Assembly: GCF_003019035.1 (NCBI RefSeq)
Contig: NZ_CP027447.1
Source of the DNA: Escherichia coli
GTDB lineage: Bacteria; Pseudomonadota; Gammaproteobacteria; Enterobacterales; Enterobacteriaceae
Strand: one strand, 5' to 3'
DNA length: 64,000 bases
In this document: positions 19,893 to 45,477 of the stretch, piece by piece
Numbering within the stretch: the stretch's first letter is position 1
How the letters are laid out: the number at the start of each line of letters is the position of its first letter
Made by a program: the position numbers and the translations under genes
Notes under the pieces: model-generated
Databases searched by the model: none
Told to the model about the DNA's origin: nothing
What the model saw: the letters and a program-made list of their open reading frames with translations, nothing else

Positions 19893-21097
<1,205 letters not shown>

Positions 21098-21713
21098 CAC
21101 GTTTTTCACTCCTGCTCCCTTCGAGGTATGCCGCGTGTCGTATAAAACTTTCTTTAAGGCTTAGAGTCAAGCATCAAAAAGCGGTCAAATTATACGGTGC
21201 GCCCCCGTGATTTCAAACAATAAGTAGCCAAAAGGTGAATAAATGTTTAAATATTTTTCCAGTGCATACAATTGCGACTTTTCTGCAAACCCTGTTCGAT
21301 CATGAAAAACTGTAAATAACGCGTAAACACTGGTGATAAAGCGTGCTTCAGATCACATATTGAGCATGTTCGCGCACAGCATATTTATTTACTTGGCAAA
21401 TGATGCCTTTGCAAGTTTATGATATTTCAGTCTAAAAACAGATACTGTTTTAATAAATGACATTTACACAACAAAAACCACCCATTGACATTTTTAATAA
21501 TGTTTTAACAGCCAATGATGATTCTTAGCGCCGATTTTTAGCAGACTGATATTTTCACTTATGACTTATTTTCTGCTTACCAAAAAAAGCCACGTTACTT
21601 TGTTGATGCAAAAGAGTGAACGTGGCGTTAAATGTAACCAGTTATATCAGTAGAAAACCTGGTTGTTGTTAACAGTCTAACCGGTCAATTTTTTATGATT
21701 TTTTTGATAAAAA

Positions 21714-22337
21714 TTAAATTTTATTTGCTTTAATCATCACCAGATGACGTTCGCCATCCAGGGCCGGAACGTGAAGTTTAACCACTGATTCGACCTGATA
21801 TTCTTCGGGCAACAAAGCGATTTCATCTTCCGGCATTTGGCCTTTCAGCGCGTAGAAACGACCTTGCTCACCAGGAAGATGGTGGCACCAGCTCACCATA
21901 TCGTTCAGAGAGGCAAAAGCGCGGCTAATTACGCCATCAAATGGCGGCTCAGAAGGAAACTCTTCTACCCTGCTCTGTACTGGCTCAATATTCTCCAGTT
22001 TAAGCTCATGTTGCACCTGACGAAGGAAACGCACGCGTTTACCAAGGCTATCCAACAACGTGAAGTGGGCTTCAGGACGCACGATAGAGAGTGGAATGCC
22101 AGGCAGTCCTGGTCCGGTGCCGACATCGATAAACCGTTCACCTTGCAGATACGGAGCTACCACAATGCTATCGAGAATATGGCGTACCAGCATCTCATTA
22201 GGATCGCGAACCGAAGTCAGGTTGTACGCTTTATTCCATTTATGCAGCATATTCACGTAGGCAATAAGCTGGTTTTTCTGGTGATCGGTAAGCGAAATAC
22301 CTGCGTCTTTCAGCAGTAAGGAGAGTTTGTTGAGCAC
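21714..22337 (-). CDS. rsmG: 16S rRNA m7G527 methyltransferase
   Basis: 207 aa ORF with SAM-binding motif ([10 protein letters not shown]); downstream of mnmG. Confidence 0.95.
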
Positions 22338-22400
22338 GGTGATTACCTGTTCTTGATGCGTTGCCTGGTAAGCGGGTGCTTACCAGGCATTTTTAATGCG

Positions 22401-24290
22401 TTATGCGCTACGACGCAGCATACCCTGTTTTTTCAGCCACACCAGCAGAATGGAGATGGCCGCAGGCGTGACGCCAGAAATACGCGAAGCCTGACCGATA
22501 GAGGCCGGTTTGTGATCGTTAAGTTTGGCGATCACTTCGTTAGAAAGACCGGATACCTGGCGGTAATCCAGCGTCGCTGGTAGCAGGGTGTTCTCGTTAC
22601 GCAGTTGCTTTTCGATCTCATCTTGCTGGCGCGCGATATAACCTTCGTATTTAACCTGAATCTCAACCTGTTCCGCCGCCTGTTCGTCTGTCAACGCAGG
22701 GGCAAACGGCGTCAGCGTGGTTAATTTTTCATAAGTCATTTCCGGACGACGCAGCAGATCTTCACCACTGGCTTCACGGGAAAGTGGCGCAGTCAGGTGA
22801 GCATTCACTTCGGCTGCAGCTTCCGCCGACGGGGTTACCCAGGTCGATTTCAGACGCTGACGCTCACGCTCGATATTCTCAAGTTTCTCGTTAAAGCGCG
22901 CCCAACGTTCGTCATCCACCAGGCCCAGTTCACGACCGATTTCAGTCAAACGCAGATCCGCATTATCTTCGCGCAGCATCAGACGATATTCTGCGCGCGA
23001 GGTAAACATACGATACGGTTCTTTGGTTCCTAAAGTGCACAGGTCATCAACCAGTACGCCGAGATACGCCTGAGAACGCGCCGGAGCCCAACCTTCTTTG
23101 TCTGCAGACAGACGGGCAGCGTTAAGACCAGCCAGCAAACCTTGCGCAGCGGCTTCTTCGTAACCGGTAGTGCCGTTAATCTGACCAGCAAAGAACAGCC
23201 CCTGGATAAACTTGCTCTCCAGCGTCGGTTTCAGGTCGCGTGGATCGAAGAAGTCATACTCAATGGCATAACCCGGACGCACGATCTTCGCGTTTTCCAT
23301 CCCCTGCATGGAGCGGACGATTTGCATCTGCACATCGAACGGCAGGCTGGTGGAGATACCGTTCGGATAAATTTCATTAGAGGTCAGTCCTTCCGGTTCA
23401 AGGAAGATCTGATGCTGATTTCTGTCGGCGAAGCGCATGACTTTGTCTTCGATCGACGGGCAGTAGCGTGGGCCGACACCTTCGATCACCCCTGCATACA
23501 TTGGGCTACGATCGAGGTTACTGCGGATCACATCATGGGTTTTCTCGTTGGTATGAGTGATATAACACGGCACCTGCTGGGGATGCTGGGACGCATTGCC
23601 CATAAACGAGAATACCGGCATTGGGTTATCGCCATGCTGTTGCGCCAGCACACTAAAGTCGATAGTTCGAGCATCAATACGCGGTGGTGTCCCGGTTTTC
23701 AGACGACCAACGCGCAGCGGCAGTTCACGCAAACGGCGAGAAAGCGGAATGGACGGCGGATCACCAGCACGGCCACCGCTGTAATTATCCAGACCGATAT
23801 GAATTTTACCGTCGAGGAACGTCCCAACGGTGAGCACGACGGCTTTGGCACGGAACTTCAGTCCCATTTGGGTAACAGCACCGACCACGCGATCGTTTTC
23901 GACAATAAGATCTTCAACCGCCTGCTGGAAGATCATCAGGTTCGGTTGGTTCTCCAGCGCCGTACGTACCGCCTGACGGTAGAGCACACGATCCGCCTGA
24001 GCTCGGGTAGCGCGAACCGCCGGTCCTTTGCTTGCGTTTAGTATCCTAAACTGGATACCTGCTTGATCGATCGCTTTCGCCATCAGACCGCCGAGTGCAT
24101 CCACTTCTTTTACCAGATGTCCCTTCCCAATACCGCCGATCGCCGGGTTGCAGCTCATCTGCCCCAGAGTGTCGATATTGTGTGTCAAAAGCAGAGTCTG
24201 TTGACCCATACGCGCCGCGGCCATCGCGGCCTCGGTGCCTGCATGACCCCCGCCAATGATGATGACGTCAAAAGGATCCGGATAAAACAT
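22401..24290 (-). CDS. mnmG: tRNA uridine 5-carboxymethylaminomethyl modification enzyme
   Basis: 629 aa ORF with N-terminal FAD-binding motif ([15 protein letters not shown]). Confidence 0.97.
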
Positions 24291-24376
24291 GGTGATTGCC
24301 TCGCATAACGCGGTATGAAAATGGATTGAAGCCCGGGCCGTGGATTCTACTCAACTTTGTCGGCTTGAGAAAGACC

Positions 24377-24650
24377 TGGGATCCTGGGTATTAAAAAGAA
24401 GATCTATTTATTTAGAGATCTGTTCTATTGTGATCTCTTATTAGGATCGCACTGCCCTGTGGATAACAAGGATCCGGCTTTTAAGATCAACAACCTGGAA
24501 AGGATCATTAACTGTGAATGATCGGTGATCCTGGACCGTATAAGCTGGGATCAGAATGAGGGGTTATACACAACTCAAAAACTGAACAACCGTTGTTCCT
24601 TGGATAACTACCGGTTGATCCAAGCTTCCTGACAGAGTTATCCACAGTAG
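24377..24650. other. chromosomal replication origin oriC
   Basis: Three AT-rich 13-mers gatctatttattt (24401..24413), gatctgttctatt (24417..24429), gatctcttattag (24432..24444); DnaA boxes tgtggataa (24458..24466), ttatacaca (24564..24572), ttatccaca (24638..24646); dense GATC sites; lies between mnmG and mioC. Confidence 0.95.
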
Positions 24651-24668
24651 ATCGCACGATCTGTATAC

Positions 24669-25112
24669 TTATTTGAGTAAATTAATCCACGATCCCAGCC
24701 ATTCTTCTGCCGGATCTTCCGGAATGTCGTGATCAAGAATGTTGATCTTCAGTGTTTCGCCTGTCTGTTTTGCACCGGAATTTTTGAGTTCAGCCTCGAG
24801 TTTATCAATAGCCCCACAAAAGGTGTCATATTCACGACTACCAATACCGATTGCGCCAAAGCGGACCGCAGAAAGATCGGGCTTCTGTTCCTGCAATGCT
24901 TCATAGAAAGGAGAAAGGTTGTCCGGAATATCTCCGGCACCGTGGGTTGAGCTGATAACCAGCCAGATCCCCGAGGCAGATAAATCTTCCAACAGCGGAC
25001 CGTGCAGCGTTTCGGTGGTAAAACCCGCCTCTTCCAGCTTTTCAGCCAGGTGTTCTGCTACATATTCGGCACCGCCGAGGGTGCTGCCGCTGATAAGAGT
25101 GATATCTGCCAT
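24669..25112 (-). CDS. mioC: FMN-binding flavodoxin-like protein MioC
   Basis: 147 aa ORF (MADITLISGSTLGGAEYVAEHLAEKLEEAGF...) transcribed toward oriC. Confidence 0.96.
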   Translation of the reverse strand: MADITLISGSTLGGAEYVAEHLAEKLEEAGFTTETLHGPLLEDLSASGIWLVISSTHGAGDIPDNLSPFYEALQEQKPDLSAVRFGAIGIGSREYDTFCGAIDKLEAELKNSGAKQTGETLKINILDHDIPEDPAEEWLGSWINLLK

Positions 25113-25201
25113 AAACCGCCACCTTTATTAAGAGTGGCGTATTGTACGCTGTGAACGCGTTGGGATCTACCTGTGGAAAAGTATGGGATTAAAAAAGCCG
25201 A

Positions 25202-25660
25202 TCAGGGCTTGATGGTACGCATGATCGGGTTCTGCAGGACGATCAGTGTCTCGGTGGACTGAATTTCATCAATTGTTTGGATCTTGTTGATAAGTACATG
25301 CTGGAGAGCATCGATCGAACGGCACATCACTTTTATAAAGATGCTGTAGTGACCGGTGGTGTAATAGGCTTCAGTGACTTCATCGAGGCTTTCCAGCTTT
25401 GCCAGCGCGGATGGATAGTCTTTGGCGCTCTTTAATATAATGCCGATAAAGCAGCCTACGTCATAACCAAGCTGCTTCGGGCTGACATCAATACGCGCCC
25501 CGGTAATGATCCCCGCCTGCTTCATTTTCTCTACTCGAACGTGAATCGTCCCCGGACTGACGCCAAATTGTTTCGCCAGTTCGGCGTAAGCGGTGCGCGC
25601 ATTGCCCATTAATGCTTCCAGGATGCCTCGGTCCAGATTGTCGATCAGATAATTTTCCAT
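25202..25660 (-). CDS. asnC: Lrp/AsnC-family transcriptional regulator AsnC
   Basis: 152 aa ORF with helix-turn-helix and RAM domain; divergent from asnA. Confidence 0.95.
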   Translation of the reverse strand: MENYLIDNLDRGILEALMGNARTAYAELAKQFGVSPGTIHVRVEKMKQAGIITGARIDVSPKQLGYDVGCFIGIILKSAKDYPSALAKLESLDEVTEAYYTTGHYSIFIKVMCRSIDALQHVLINKIQTIDEIQSTETLIVLQNPIMRTIKP

Positions 25661-25811
25661 AGGATTTTCTTATGCGGATTGATGATTCATTCTATTTTAG
25701 CCTTCTTTTTTAATGAATCAAAAGTACGCGAGGCTTTTTATTGAATGATTATTGCATGTGTATCGGGTTTTGTTGCTTAATCATAAGCAACAGGACGCAG
25801 GAGTATAAAAA

Positions 25812-26804
25812 ATGAAAACCGCTTACATTGCCAAACAACGTCAAATTAGCTTCGTGAAATCTCACTTTTCTCGTCAACTGGAAGAACGTCTGGGGCTGAT
25901 CGAAGTCCAGGCGCCGATTCTTAGCCGTGTGGGGGATGGCACGCAGGATAACTTGTCGGGCTGTGAAAAAGCGGTGCAGGTAAAAGTGAAAGCTCTGCCT
26001 GATGCCCAGTTCGAAGTGGTTCATTCACTGGCGAAGTGGAAGCGTCAGACCTTAGGGCAACACGACTTCAGCGCGGGCGAAGGGCTGTACACGCACATGA
26101 AAGCCCTTCGCCCCGATGAAGACCGTCTTTCCCCGTTGCACTCGGTCTATGTAGACCAGTGGGACTGGGAACGCGTAATGGGCGACGGCGAGCGTCAATT
26201 CTCGACTCTGAAAAGCACGGTAGAGGCGATCTGGGCGGGAATTAAAGCAACCGAAGCTGCAGTTAGCGAAGAGTTTGGCCTGGCACCGTTCCTGCCGGAT
26301 CAGATCCACTTCGTACACAGCCAGGAGTTACTGTCTCGTTATCCGGATCTCGATGCCAAAGGGCGTGAGCGGGCGATTGCGAAAGATCTTGGCGCGGTAT
26401 TCCTCGTCGGGATTGGCGGCAAGTTGAGTGATGGTCATCGCCACGACGTGCGCGCACCGGATTATGATGACTGGAGCACCCCGTCAGAGCTGGGCCATGC
26501 GGGTCTGAACGGCGATATTCTGGTGTGGAACCCGGTACTGGAAGATGCGTTTGAGCTTTCTTCCATGGGGATCCGCGTGGATGCCGACACGCTGAAGCAT
26601 CAGCTGGCGCTGACCGGTGACGAAGATCGCCTGGAGCTGGAGTGGCATCAGGCGCTGCTGCGCGGTGAAATGCCGCAGACCATCGGCGGCGGTATCGGCC
26701 AGTCTCGTTTGACCATGCTGCTGCTGCAACTGCCGCATATCGGCCAGGTTCAGTGTGGTGTATGGCCAGCTGCTGTTCGCGAGAGCGTCCCTTCTCTGCT
26801 GTAA
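25812..26804 (+). CDS. asnA: aspartate--ammonia ligase (asparagine synthetase A)
   Basis: 330 aa ORF ([40 protein letters not shown]...). Confidence 0.97.
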
Positions 26805-26808
26805 TCAT

Positions 26809-28260
26809 TTATCGCCGCCAGCGTCTGAGCAGGCGGCTTCGCATCCCGGTATCAAAGCGCCAGATATGATCGAAAATGCGCATGATGCCGGGTTTGCCAT
26901 GTGCAGACATCGCCACGGCATGAAAGCGATACTGATGTACCCGCTGCAACTCTTTCACTTTGCTCGTCACGTCGTCAGGCAATCGCTGGGCGATAAAATC
27001 AGAAATCACCACCGCATCGGCATCAAACCATTCCCGGCTTTGCAAGCGTTCCATAATGGCGCGAAAACAACTGGCCAGATCGGTGCCGCCACGAAACTGC
27101 TGGCTTAAAAAACGGATTGCTTGTTCGATGCCTTGTGGGCCTGAAAGCTCATAACGGACGATCTCGGTGGAAAATAGCATAATATAACAGCGCCGGTTTT
27201 CAGCGAGAGCAATGCGCATCAAAGCCAGGCAGAACGCTTTCGCACACTGTTCATTAAAGCCGCCCATTGAGCCGGAAGTATCCACACAGACAATAAACGG
27301 TCCGCGCGGCTGTTCGTCGTAATCTTTATGTACTACCGGGCGTTCAATCACTTTTTCACGCCACGACTCACCGTGCAGGCGATAGGTGAGCAACTGTTTT
27401 TCCACCAGTCGACGGTAAAACTCATACTCCAGTTCTGTTATCCCTAGTGTCGCCAGTTCTGGCGGCAGGAGACGTAAAATATCATCGCTTTGTTGCAGAC
27501 CATCAACCTGCTCAGGAACCGTCGCCGGTTCGCGCACCATGGTGCGGAAGGTTTCCATCTGCGCATCGTTGCGCGGTATTGATTTGGCTTCCCGGGAACG
27601 CCCCAGCTGTTCTGCCAGACGTTTCAGTTCCGGCTGTTCGTTAAGAAATTCACCGTATTTCACAATCAACTGATAGTCGCCACGTTTAAGCTGACCGGCG
27701 CTCATATCCCACAGACGACCAGCTGCGGTATTGTTATCTGCGAGAATCGGTTCAAGTTGCCCGCTCAGCGTCATGCGTTCCTGAACTTCACTCAACAGTT
27801 GTTCGCGTTCTTCTTCTAATAGCTGCTGATTTAACGTCGTTGCTTGCACGATCAGGCTTAAACGCCAGCGCTGGAGAAAAAGCGTGTGTAACGCTGAAGT
27901 GATCGTACTGTTAGCATCAACCAACTGTCGGGCTTGTTCTGCCCATGGGGAATTCAGACGATGCAGTAAGTCCAGGATCTGTGGTAGCTGCACAATAAAC
28001 TGCGGCGTGGAGAGGAGCTGGCTTTGCTGATAGCACATCACCTCTTCGGTGAGTTCCGGCGGGACTCGGGCATCTTTCAGCCGACTGCGCAGCGCCTCAC
28101 GCCAGCGGGGAACATCATCAGTGATAGCCGCCTTCAGTCGTGGGAATTTTTCAAAGAAGACCGCCAGCTGCGGTGAGGCCAGCAGCGCGATGATCATCTC
28201 TTCGATCAATCCCTCTTCGCTGACGGCCAGCATCACATTAAGCGTATCCAGCGTTAGCAT
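26809..28260 (-). CDS. viaA: von Willebrand factor A domain protein ViaA
   Basis: 483 aa ORF immediately downstream of ravA and overlapping it by 7 nt. Confidence 0.93.
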
Positions 28261-40463: not shown

Positions 40464-42005
<1,542 letters not shown>

Positions 42006-42090
42006 CCTTAAAGAACTGTGCTTTGCAGTGCTCACACAGATTGTCTGATAGAAAGTGAAAAGCAAGGCGTCTTGCGAAGCAGACTGATAC

Positions 42091-42166
42091 GTCCCCTTCG
42101 TCTAGAGGCCCAGGACACCGCCCTTTCACGGCGGTAACAGGGGTTCGAATCCCCTAGGGGACGCCA
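42091..42166 (+). tRNA. gltU: tRNA-Glu (UUC) in the 16S-23S spacer
   Basis: gtccccttcgtctagaggcccaggacaccgccctttcacggcggtaacaggggttcgaatcccctaggggacgcca. Confidence 0.95.
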
Positions 42167-42359
42167 CTTGCTGGTTTGTGAGTGAAAGTCACCTGCCTTA
42201 ATATCTCAAAACTCATCTTCGGGTGATGTTTGAGATATTTGCTCTTTAAAAATCTGGATCAAGCTGAAAATTGAAACACTGAACAACGAGAGTTGTTCGT
42301 GAGTCTCTCAAATTTTCGCAACACGATGATGAATCGAAAGAAACATCTTCGGGTTGTGA

Positions 42360-45264
<2,905 letters not shown>

Positions 45265-45357
45265 ACAACGCCGAAGATGTTTTGGCGGAAGAGAGAAGAT
45301 TTTCAGCCTGATACAGATTAAATTAACCGGCGACAAGCGGGTTAATAAAACAGAATT

Positions 45358-45477
45358 TGCCTGGCGGCCGTAGCGCGGTGGTCCCACCTGACCCCATGCC
45401 GAACTCAGAAGTGAAACGCCGTAGCGCCGATGGTAGTGTGGGGTCTCCCCATGCGAGAGTAGGGAACTGCCAGGCAT
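45358..45477 (+). rRNA. rrfC: 5S ribosomal RNA
   Basis: tgcctggcggccgtagcgcggtggtcccacctgacccc...gggaactgccaggcat, 120 nt. Confidence 0.97.

What the first reader, a model, noticed from the sequence alone, without database searches (positions are those of the whole stretch)
24377..24650. oriC lies in this window
The three AT-rich 13-mers, multiple DnaA boxes and a high density of GATC sites are all readable directly. The window therefore spans the replication origin, with mioC transcribed into it and mnmG transcribed away from it. A few bases in the R2-R3 interval appear to differ from my recollection of the K-12 sequence (for example aacaaccgttgttcc), which I cannot confirm.
Basis: partly seen in the sequence, partly recalled or inferred. 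Interest (0 to 1): 0.35.

Follow-up and report, generated by a model that had tools for sequence, protein, structure and literature searches.

The report
E. coli chromosomal origin oriC, confirmed
This is the ordinary, textbook replication origin (oriC) of an Escherichia coli chromosome, carrying two single-base differences from the K-12 laboratory strain that are a common, already published natural variant.

Summary
The observation and the interpretation are both correct. Window 24401-24646 is the minimal E. coli oriC. It holds three 13-mers, DnaA boxes R1, R5M, R2, R3 and R4, the low-affinity site arrays, IHF and Fis sites, and 11 GATC sites. It lies between mnmG (22401-24290, minus strand, transcribed away) and mioC (24669-25112, minus strand, transcribed into it).

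The 421 bp around it are 418/421 identical to MG1655, where this stretch is annotated as the origin. They are 100% identical to many other E. coli chromosomes. GATC density is about 9 times the window average. The cumulative GC skew of the window reaches its minimum at 24254.

- A>C at 24591, the centre of the Fis 15-mer.
- T>C at 24599, which changes R3 from TTATCCAAA to TTATCCAAG and lies inside C3.

This haplotype occurs in 1,101 of about 5,421 complete E. coli genomes, about as many as the K-12 haplotype (1,136). The R3/C3 change was already reported in 10 of 59 strains by Frimodt-Moller et al. 2015.

Verdict: already known, low interest. In passing, the window holds a five-gene island between ilvC and ppiC found in only 31 of 5,426 complete genomes.

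The parts
24389..24400 (+). AT-rich cluster (TATTAAAAAGAA) just left of the L 13-mer, outside minimal oriC
   Evidence: Identical to MG1655. Named as the AT-rich 12-bp element flanking L-DUE in PMC10380432.
24401..24444 (+). DNA unwinding element: L (24401-24413), M (24417-24429) and R (24432-24444) 13-mers, each starting with GATC
   Evidence: Identical to MG1655. AT content of 24385-24444 is 73%.
24458..24466 (-). DnaA box R1, TTATCCACA (high affinity)
   Evidence: Perfect consensus match. Identical to MG1655.
24485..24497 (+). IHF-binding site core (GATCAACAACCTG) between R1 and R5M
   Evidence: Only IHF-like match (2 mismatches to WATCAANNNNTTR) in the R1-R5M gap. The location agrees. Identical to MG1655.
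24513..24554 (-). Left low-affinity DnaA array with 2-bp spacing: R5M 24513-24521 (TCATTCACA), tau2 24524-24532, I1 24535-24543, I2 24546-24554
   Evidence: The register comes from the published 2-bp spacing rule. The resulting mismatch counts (I1 = 3, I2 = 4) equal those stated in PMC4585315. Identical to MG1655.
24564..24572 (+). DnaA box R2, TTATACACA (high affinity)
24573..24598 (+). Fis-binding region: two overlapping 15-mers. 24573-24587 has 1 mismatch. 24584-24598 (GAACAACCGTTGTTC) is a perfect match to GnnYAnnnnnTRnnC. The variant A>C at 24591 is its central, unspecified base.
   Evidence: Fis consensus from PMC10380432. Two Fis sites between R2 and C3, one overlapping C3, are described in PMC8488378.
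24593..24634 (+). Right low-affinity DnaA array with 2-bp spacing: C3 24593-24601 (TTGTTCCTT; K-12 TTGTTCTTT), C2 24604-24612, I3 24615-24623, C1 24626-24634
   Evidence: Register from the 2-bp spacing rule. C3 has 4 mismatches in both alleles, as stated.
24599..24607 (-). Classical DnaA box R3, here TTATCCAAG (K-12 TTATCCAAA). It overlaps C3 and C2. The variant T>C at 24599 is its ninth base.
   Evidence: Mismatch count goes from 1 to 2, as reported for 10 of 59 strains.
24638..24646 (+). DnaA box R4, TTATCCACA (high affinity); right end of minimal oriC
24380..24653 (.). GATC (Dam/SeqA) cluster of 13 sites starting at 24380, 24401, 24417, 24432, 24445, 24471, 24485, 24503, 24520, 24527, 24549, 24617 and 24650
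22401..24290 (-). mnmG (gidA), transcribed away from oriC
   Evidence: NCBIfam TIGR00136 equivalog, 1017 bits. Annotated as mnmG in the near-identical genome SCU-301.
24669..25112 (-). mioC, transcribed towards and into oriC
   Evidence: NCBIfam NF006531 equivalog, 245 bits. Annotation.
25172..25180 (-). DnaA-box-like 9-mer TTTTCCACA in the mioC promoter region
   Evidence: One search reports it as 1 mismatch to TTATNCACA, and it has none to TTWTNCACA. A role in mioC control rests on my memory of the K-12 literature and was not tested.

Best explanation
Window 24401-24646, plus the AT cluster from 24389, is the single chromosomal replication origin oriC of an E. coli strain. The strain is closest in the collection to SCU-301.

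The mechanism below is inferred by near-identity to K-12, where it was shown experimentally. It was not shown here.
1. DnaA sits permanently on R1, R2 and R4.
2. DnaA-ATP then fills the two oppositely oriented low-affinity arrays: R5M-tau2-I1-I2 on the left and C1-I3-C2-C3 on the right.
3. Fis, bound between R2 and C3, delays this filling. IHF, bound between R1 and R5M, promotes it.
4. The complex melts the three 13-mers and loads DnaB.
5. The 11 GATC sites allow SeqA to sequester the hemimethylated origin after firing.

The origin carries a natural haplotype, C at oriC position 213 and C at position 221. It leaves every consensus-specified Fis base and the C3 mismatch count unchanged, and it weakens only the classical R3 box.
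For: - 418/421 identity to MG1655 across the annotated origin.
- 100% identity over 421 bp to many chromosomes, including ATCC 8739, strain C and O121 RM8352. The sequence is single-copy and chromosomal in 5,424 of 5,426 genomes.
- Conserved gene order rsmG-mnmG-oriC-mioC-asnC-asnA.
- GATC is about 9-fold enriched, P about 1e-8.
- 3 of the 7 perfect DnaA boxes in the window fall within 189 bp.
- The cumulative GC skew minimum is at 24254, with a sign change there.
- Haplotype counts for the 86-mer 24555-24640 are 1,101 for the window allele, 1,136 for the K-12 allele and 747 for C213/T221.
- The R3/C3 change was already described in 10 of 59 strains.
Against: Nothing in the sequence argues against it. 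Two limits apply:
- Origin firing itself is inferred from K-12 experiments, not observed.
- GC skew could be computed only over 64 kb, not over the whole replicon.
Confidence: 0.98

Rival explanations
1. The two substitutions (24591 A>C, 24599 T>C) are functionally meaningful. By changing the core of the Fis site and the R3/C3 overlap, they would shift Fis/DnaA competition and so the timing or synchrony of initiation in the lineages that carry them.
For: - Both changes fall in the region where Fis and the right-hand DnaA array compete.
- Engineered C3 mutations shift initiation age in slow growth.
- Position 213 has three alleles (A, C, G) among the 8 origins compared.
Against: - 24591 is an unspecified base of the Fis consensus.
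- C3 keeps 4 mismatches in both alleles.
- The allele is in about 20% of complete genomes, as common as the K-12 allele. That fits a neutral or nearly neutral polymorphism.
- Chromosomal oriC tolerates deletion of R3 or of the Fis site.
Confidence: 0.12
2. The differences from K-12 are sequencing or assembly errors in the window.
For: None beyond their being isolated single-base changes.
Against: The identical 86-mer is in 1,101 independent complete genomes. The identical 421-mer is in many. The same R3 change is published.
Confidence: 0.01
3. The motif cluster is an inactive oriC-like copy, and the active origin lies elsewhere on the replicon.
For: None.
Against: - The sequence is single-copy in nearly all genomes, with a median of 1 place per genome.
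- It has the canonical mnmG-mioC context.
- The GC-skew minimum coincides with it.
Confidence: 0.01

Closest known systems
E. coli K-12 MG1655 oriC (NC_000913.3 3925744-3925975, between mnmG and mioC)
   Same: - The element order and all spacings are the same.
- Identical in sequence: all three 13-mers, R1, R5M, tau2, I1, I2, R2, C2, I3, C1, R4, the IHF site and all GATC sites.
- 418/421 identity overall, with no indels.
   Different: - 24591 A>C (oriC position 213, centre of the Fis 15-mer).
- 24599 T>C (position 221): R3 changes from TTATCCAAA to TTATCCAAG and C3 from TTGTTCTTT to TTGTTCCTT.
- 24686 C>T, inside mioC.
oriC of E. coli ATCC 8739, strain C, O121 RM8352, SCU-301 and others; the R3/C3 variant class of Frimodt-Moller et al. 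2015 (PMC4585315)
   Same: 100% identical over window 24300-24720. The paper describes 10 of 59 strains whose R3 has two mismatches rather than one while C3 is no worse, which is exactly what is seen here.
   Different: Nothing in oriC. I did not open the paper's supplementary figures to confirm that the published base change is the same T>C. The match rests on the identical mismatch counts.
Other natural E. coli oriC haplotypes (EDL933, MS7163, EcPF7, L1PEag1, 22F46, 89-3156)
   Same: Same length and architecture, with no indels over 686 bp.
   Different: - They carry T at position 221.
- Position 213 is C, G or A.
- Some have G>T at 24614.
- MS7163 has A>G at 24535, inside I1.
- EDL933 has G>T at the first base of the R 13-mer, which removes one GATC.

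Membership tests
E. coli-type chromosomal origin oriC (DnaA-dependent, mnmG-mioC locus) | AT-rich duplex unwinding element with three tandem 13-mers (GATCTnTTnTTTT-like) | tested here: met
   The 13-mers at 24401, 24417 and 24432 have 1, 1 and 2 mismatches. They are identical to MG1655.
E. coli-type chromosomal origin oriC (DnaA-dependent, mnmG-mioC locus) | Three high-affinity DnaA boxes R1, R2 and R4 matching TTATNCACA, in K-12 spacing and orientation | tested here: met
   24458 (-), 24564 (+) and 24638 (+), all perfect matches. These are oriC positions 80-88, 186-194 and 260-268.
E. coli-type chromosomal origin oriC (DnaA-dependent, mnmG-mioC locus) | Two arrays of four low-affinity DnaA sites separated by 2 bp (R5M-tau2-I1-I2 and C1-I3-C2-C3) | tested here: met
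   Seven of the eight sites are identical to MG1655. C3 differs at one base but keeps the same mismatch count. The register was checked against the counts.
E. coli-type chromosomal origin oriC (DnaA-dependent, mnmG-mioC locus) | IHF site between R1 and R5M, and Fis site between R2 and C3 | tested here: met
   The IHF-like core at 24485-24497 is identical to K-12. The Fis 15-mer at 24584-24598 matches GnnYAnnnnnTRnnC perfectly in both alleles. Protein binding itself was not tested.
E. coli-type chromosomal origin oriC (DnaA-dependent, mnmG-mioC locus) | Dense GATC cluster (11 in the minimal origin) for Dam/SeqA sequestration | tested here: met
   11 GATC in 24401-24646 and 12 in 24377-24650, against 1.29 expected; the maximum elsewhere is 7.
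E. coli-type chromosomal origin oriC (DnaA-dependent, mnmG-mioC locus) | Position between mnmG (gidA) and mioC, with mioC transcription entering the origin | tested here: met
E. coli-type chromosomal origin oriC (DnaA-dependent, mnmG-mioC locus) | GC-skew sign switch at the origin | tested here: met
   Within the window, the cumulative minimum is at 24254. The 4-kb skew is -0.041 to the left and +0.016 to the right. A whole-replicon skew cannot be computed from a 64-kb window.
E. coli-type chromosomal origin oriC (DnaA-dependent, mnmG-mioC locus) | Supports DnaA-dependent initiation (autonomous replication, copy-number peak) | not testable with these tools
   Inferred from near-identity to the experimentally characterised K-12 origin.

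The most novel reading that the evidence does not exclude
The C213/C221 oriC haplotype, present in about one fifth of complete E. coli genomes, might be more than neutral. It would weaken R3 and alter the Fis-site core and C3, measurably retuning Fis/DnaA competition and initiation timing in those lineages. It would also serve as a natural experiment showing that C3, not R3, is the functional site.
Probability: 0.1. Interest if true: 0.25.

Novelty: already known. Interest (0 to 1): 0.05.

Why it matters
It matters little as a discovery. oriC of E. coli is among the best-characterised DNA elements in biology, and this copy is identical to those of many sequenced strains.

Its practical value is as an anchor. 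It fixes the window as the origin-proximal region of an E. coli chromosome, sets the leading and lagging strand assignment for every gene in the window, and identifies the oriC haplotype.

The one point of mild biological interest is the R3/C3 polymorphism, which has already been used in print to argue that C3 rather than R3 is the functional DnaA site (PMC4585315).

Tried and rejected
- I tried to read Rozgaja et al. 2011 (PMC3192301) and Hengen et al. 2003 (PMC275571) for the exact published coordinates of C1-C3 and the Fis sites. Neither is held.
- A full-text search for the R3 sequence TTATCCAAA with 'oriC' returned only irrelevant papers.
- I therefore derived the register of the low-affinity sites from the published rule of four sites separated by 2 bp. 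I checked it against the per-site mismatch counts given in PMC4585315 (I1 = 3, I2 = 4, C3 = 4, R3 = 1 or 2). All agree.
- Window-wide counts of loose motifs are not informative. DnaA box with 1 mismatch gave 57 against 49 expected. The 13-mer with 3 mismatches gave 196 against 172 expected. Only the local clustering is significant.
- The Fis consensus alone is too degenerate to prove anything, with 56 plus-strand matches in the window. Its value here is positional.
- PMC4585315 states that the Fis site is 'completely conserved' in 59 strains. Position 213 nevertheless varies (A/C/G). This is compatible if only consensus-specified bases, or a differently delimited site, were scored. I could not check their supplementary figure.
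- I considered sequencing error and a decoy origin, and rejected both (see rival explanations).

Full report
**What is in the sequence**

Reading window 24100-24900 shows the complete architecture of the E. coli origin.
- An AT-rich cluster, TATTAAAAAGAA, at 24389-24400.
- Three tandem 13-mers, each starting with GATC: L at 24401-24413 (GATCTATTTATTT), M at 24417-24429 (GATCTGTTCTATT) and R at 24432-24444 (GATCTCTTATTAG).
- Perfect DnaA boxes at 24458-24466 (minus strand, R1), 24564-24572 (plus, R2) and 24638-24646 (plus, R4), with R5M (TCATTCACA) at 24513-24521.

In the classical numbering, with position 1 at the BamHI site at 24379, this is positions 23-268.

**Is it more than chance?**

Loose motif counts over the whole window are not significant. 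The DnaA box with one mismatch gave 57 matches against 48.6 expected. The 13-mer with three mismatches gave 196 against 172.

The clustering is significant.
- Three of the seven perfect TTATNCACA matches in 64 kb (both strands) lie within 189 bp.
- There are 12 GATC sites in 24377-24650, against 1.29 expected from the window-wide density. The Poisson tail is about 1.3e-8, or about 3e-6 after correcting for the number of windows. No other 274-bp stretch in the window has more than 7.
- The 60 bp covering the unwinding element are 73% A+T.

**Identity with the known origin**

MG1655 carries an annotated origin_of_replication feature at 3925744-3925975, between mnmG and mioC. Aligning window 24300-24720 with the corresponding MG1655 stretch gives 418 identical positions out of 421 and no gaps. 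The annotated feature maps to window 24401-24632.

A megablast search of the same 421 bp against all complete RefSeq E. coli genomes finds it in 5,424 of 5,426 genomes. The median is one place per genome, always on chromosomes and never on plasmids. Many matches are 100% identical, including ATCC 8739, strain C and O121 RM8352.

**Flanking genes and direction of transcription**

The ORFs at 22401-24290 and 24669-25112, both on the minus strand, hit the NCBIfam equivalog models for MnmG (1017 bits) and MioC (245 bits). The next ORFs are RsmG and AsnC.

The closest complete genome, SCU-301, is 100.0% identical over window 1-24000 in a single aligned piece that is 2 bases shorter than the query. 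It is annotated with the same order: atp operon, rsmG, mnmG, mioC, asnC, asnA. This matches MG1655.

**GC skew**

- Skew in 2-kb bins is negative through about 22 kb, near zero across 22-30 kb, and mostly positive beyond that.
- In 4-kb bins it is -0.041 for 20001-24000 and +0.016 for 24001-28000.
- The base-by-base cumulative G-C curve reaches its minimum at 24254, about 150 bp from the unwinding element.

This is the expected signature of an origin with the plus strand leading to the right. Only the 64-kb window could be analysed, not the full replicon.

**The differences from K-12**

Inside oriC there are exactly two substitutions: 24591 A>C (oriC position 213) and 24599 T>C (position 221). 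A third, 24686 C>T, lies in the 3' end of mioC.

To place the two changes I laid out the known sites. The Leonard/Grimwade papers state that each gap between high-affinity boxes holds four low-affinity sites separated by 2 bp. They also state that Fis binds between R2 and C3, with one of two Fis sites overlapping C3. Applying that rule gives:
- R5M 24513-24521, tau2 24524-24532, I1 24535-24543, I2 24546-24554
- C3 24593-24601, C2 24604-24612, I3 24615-24623, C1 24626-24634

In this register the mismatch counts to TTWTNCACA are I1 = 3, I2 = 4, C3 = 4 and R3 (K-12) = 1. These are exactly the numbers given by Frimodt-Moller et al. 2015, which supports the register.

Using the Fis consensus GnnYAnnnnnTRnnC, the 15-mer at 24584-24598 is a perfect match in both alleles (K-12 GAACAACAGTTGTTC, window GAACAACCGTTGTTC). 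A second 15-mer, 11 bp upstream at 24573-24587, has one mismatch.
- The 24591 change is the central, unspecified base of the Fis 15-mer.
- The 24599 change is the ninth base of classical R3 (TTATCCAAA becomes TTATCCAAG, going from one mismatch to two). It is also the seventh base of C3 (TTGTTCTTT becomes TTGTTCCTT, four mismatches in both).

**How common the allele is**

I used the 86-mer 24555-24640, chosen so that a single mismatch drops identity below 99%. Exact matches among about 5,421 complete genomes were:

| Haplotype | Genomes with exact match |
|---|---|
| Window (C213/C221) | 1,101 |
| MG1655 (A213/T221) | 1,136 |
| Intermediate (C213/T221) | 747 |

The remainder carry other haplotypes. 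A comparison of eight origins over 686 bp shows no indels. Position 213 has three alleles (A in K-12 and L1PEag1, G in EDL933, C elsewhere). C at 221 is specific to the window's class.

The window allele is thus a major natural haplotype, not an error and not new. Frimodt-Moller et al. 2015 surveyed 59 genomes. They reported that 10 had changes in the R3/C3 boxes that made R3 a poorer match (two mismatches) while C3 was not worsened. They used this to argue that C3 is the functional site. The frequencies, 17% there and 20% here, agree.

The same paper says the Fis site is completely conserved. Position 213 nevertheless varies, which is compatible if only consensus-specified bases, or a differently delimited site, were scored. 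I could not check their supplementary figure.

**Mechanism**

Nothing about function was measured here. By near-identity to K-12, the established model applies.
1. DnaA is constitutively bound at R1, R2 and R4.
2. DnaA-ATP progressively and cooperatively fills the two low-affinity arrays.
3. Fis between R2 and C3 delays this, and delays IHF binding, until DnaA growing from R4 displaces it.
4. IHF then bends the R1-R5M gap, and the 13-mers are unwound for DnaB loading.
5. After firing, the hemimethylated GATC cluster is sequestered by SeqA.

A functional effect of the two substitutions is possible, because engineered C3 changes shift initiation age in slow growth. It is unlikely to be large. 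No consensus-specified Fis base changes and the C3 mismatch count is unchanged. Chromosomal oriC tolerates deletion of R3 or of the Fis site, and the allele is as frequent as the K-12 one.

**Verdict**

The feature is already known, in this exact sequence, and interest is low. Its use is as an anchor for the window: it identifies the species and locus, sets the strand polarity of replication, and gives the oriC haplotype.

**Rest of the window**

The window runs from phoU-pstBACS through glmSU, the atp operon, rsmG-mnmG, oriC, mioC-asnCA, viaA-ravA, kup, rbs, mdtD/hsrA, yieP, rrnC, hdfR, maoP, yifB and the ilv genes to ppiC and the start of rep.

Compared with MG1655 there are two insertions of about 5.4 kb each.
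- 5071-10497: the lpf-O113 fimbrial operon, between pstS and glmS.
- 58046-63440: a five-gene cluster between ilvC and ppiC. It encodes a GntR/FCD regulator, a PfkB kinase, an RraA-like aldolase, a D-2-hydroxyacid dehydrogenase and an MFS transporter. It is present in only 31 of 5,426 complete genomes.

Noticed in passing
window 58046-63440: A 5.4-kb insertion relative to MG1655 between ilvC and ppiC. All five genes are on the minus strand: GntR/FCD regulator, PfkB sugar kinase, RraA-like aldolase, D-isomer 2-hydroxyacid dehydrogenase and MFS transporter. It looks like a sugar-acid or keto-acid utilisation cluster. It is rare: only 31 of 5,426 complete E. coli genomes have it, all at 99% identity or more and all chromosomal. 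Substrate and origin are unknown.
   Followed up: partly
window 55534-58045: The ilvY-ilvC stretch just left of the rare island is only 95.1% identical to MG1655. The 45 kb before it is 98.3% identical. The ppiC and rep-upstream pieces right of the island are 95.0% and 93.7% identical. This suggests the island arrived with diverged flanks by recombination.
   Followed up: no
window 5071-10497: The lpf-O113 long polar fimbria operon (lpfA, lpfB, lpfC and a fimbrial protein gene) is inserted between pstS and glmS relative to MG1655, in a low-GC stretch. The usher ORF is intact here (6294-8816, 840 aa). The near-identical SCU-301 record annotates it as frameshifted. About 1,933 of 5,426 genomes cover at least 80% of window 1-24000, so roughly a third carry this operon.
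   Followed up: partly
window 49216-50862: ilvG is an intact 548-aa ORF. In MG1655 it is the well-known frameshifted pseudogene.
   Followed up: no
window 24591 and loci L004-L009: oriC position 213, the centre of the Fis 15-mer, has three alleles (A/C/G) among eight E. coli origins. EDL933 has G>T at the first base of the R 13-mer (window-equivalent 24432), which removes one GATC. MS7163 has A>G at 24535, inside I1. [quoted passage not shown]
   Followed up: partly
window about 1998 (pstB-pstA intergenic): MG1655 has about 84 bp between pstB and pstA (L010 3468-3551) that are absent from the window. The two alignment blocks abut at 1991-1998. It is probably a REP-type intergenic element, but I did not examine it.
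   Followed up: no
window 13945-14102, 42244-42352, 48907-49196: Rfam matches at gathering score: sRNA STnc410 in the glmU-atpC intergenic region, StyR-44 in the 16S-23S spacer of rrnC, and 'Rev39 5'UTR' over the ilv leader region. The rrnC rRNAs (40464-45475) and three tRNAs were also found. All are expected for this locus.
   Followed up: no
window 39001-64000: The window is 100.0% identical to SCU-301 over 1-24000 but only 99.7% over 39001-64000, where strain GF131 is closer at 99.8%. The source strain is therefore neither of these, or it is a mosaic of close relatives.
   Followed up: no
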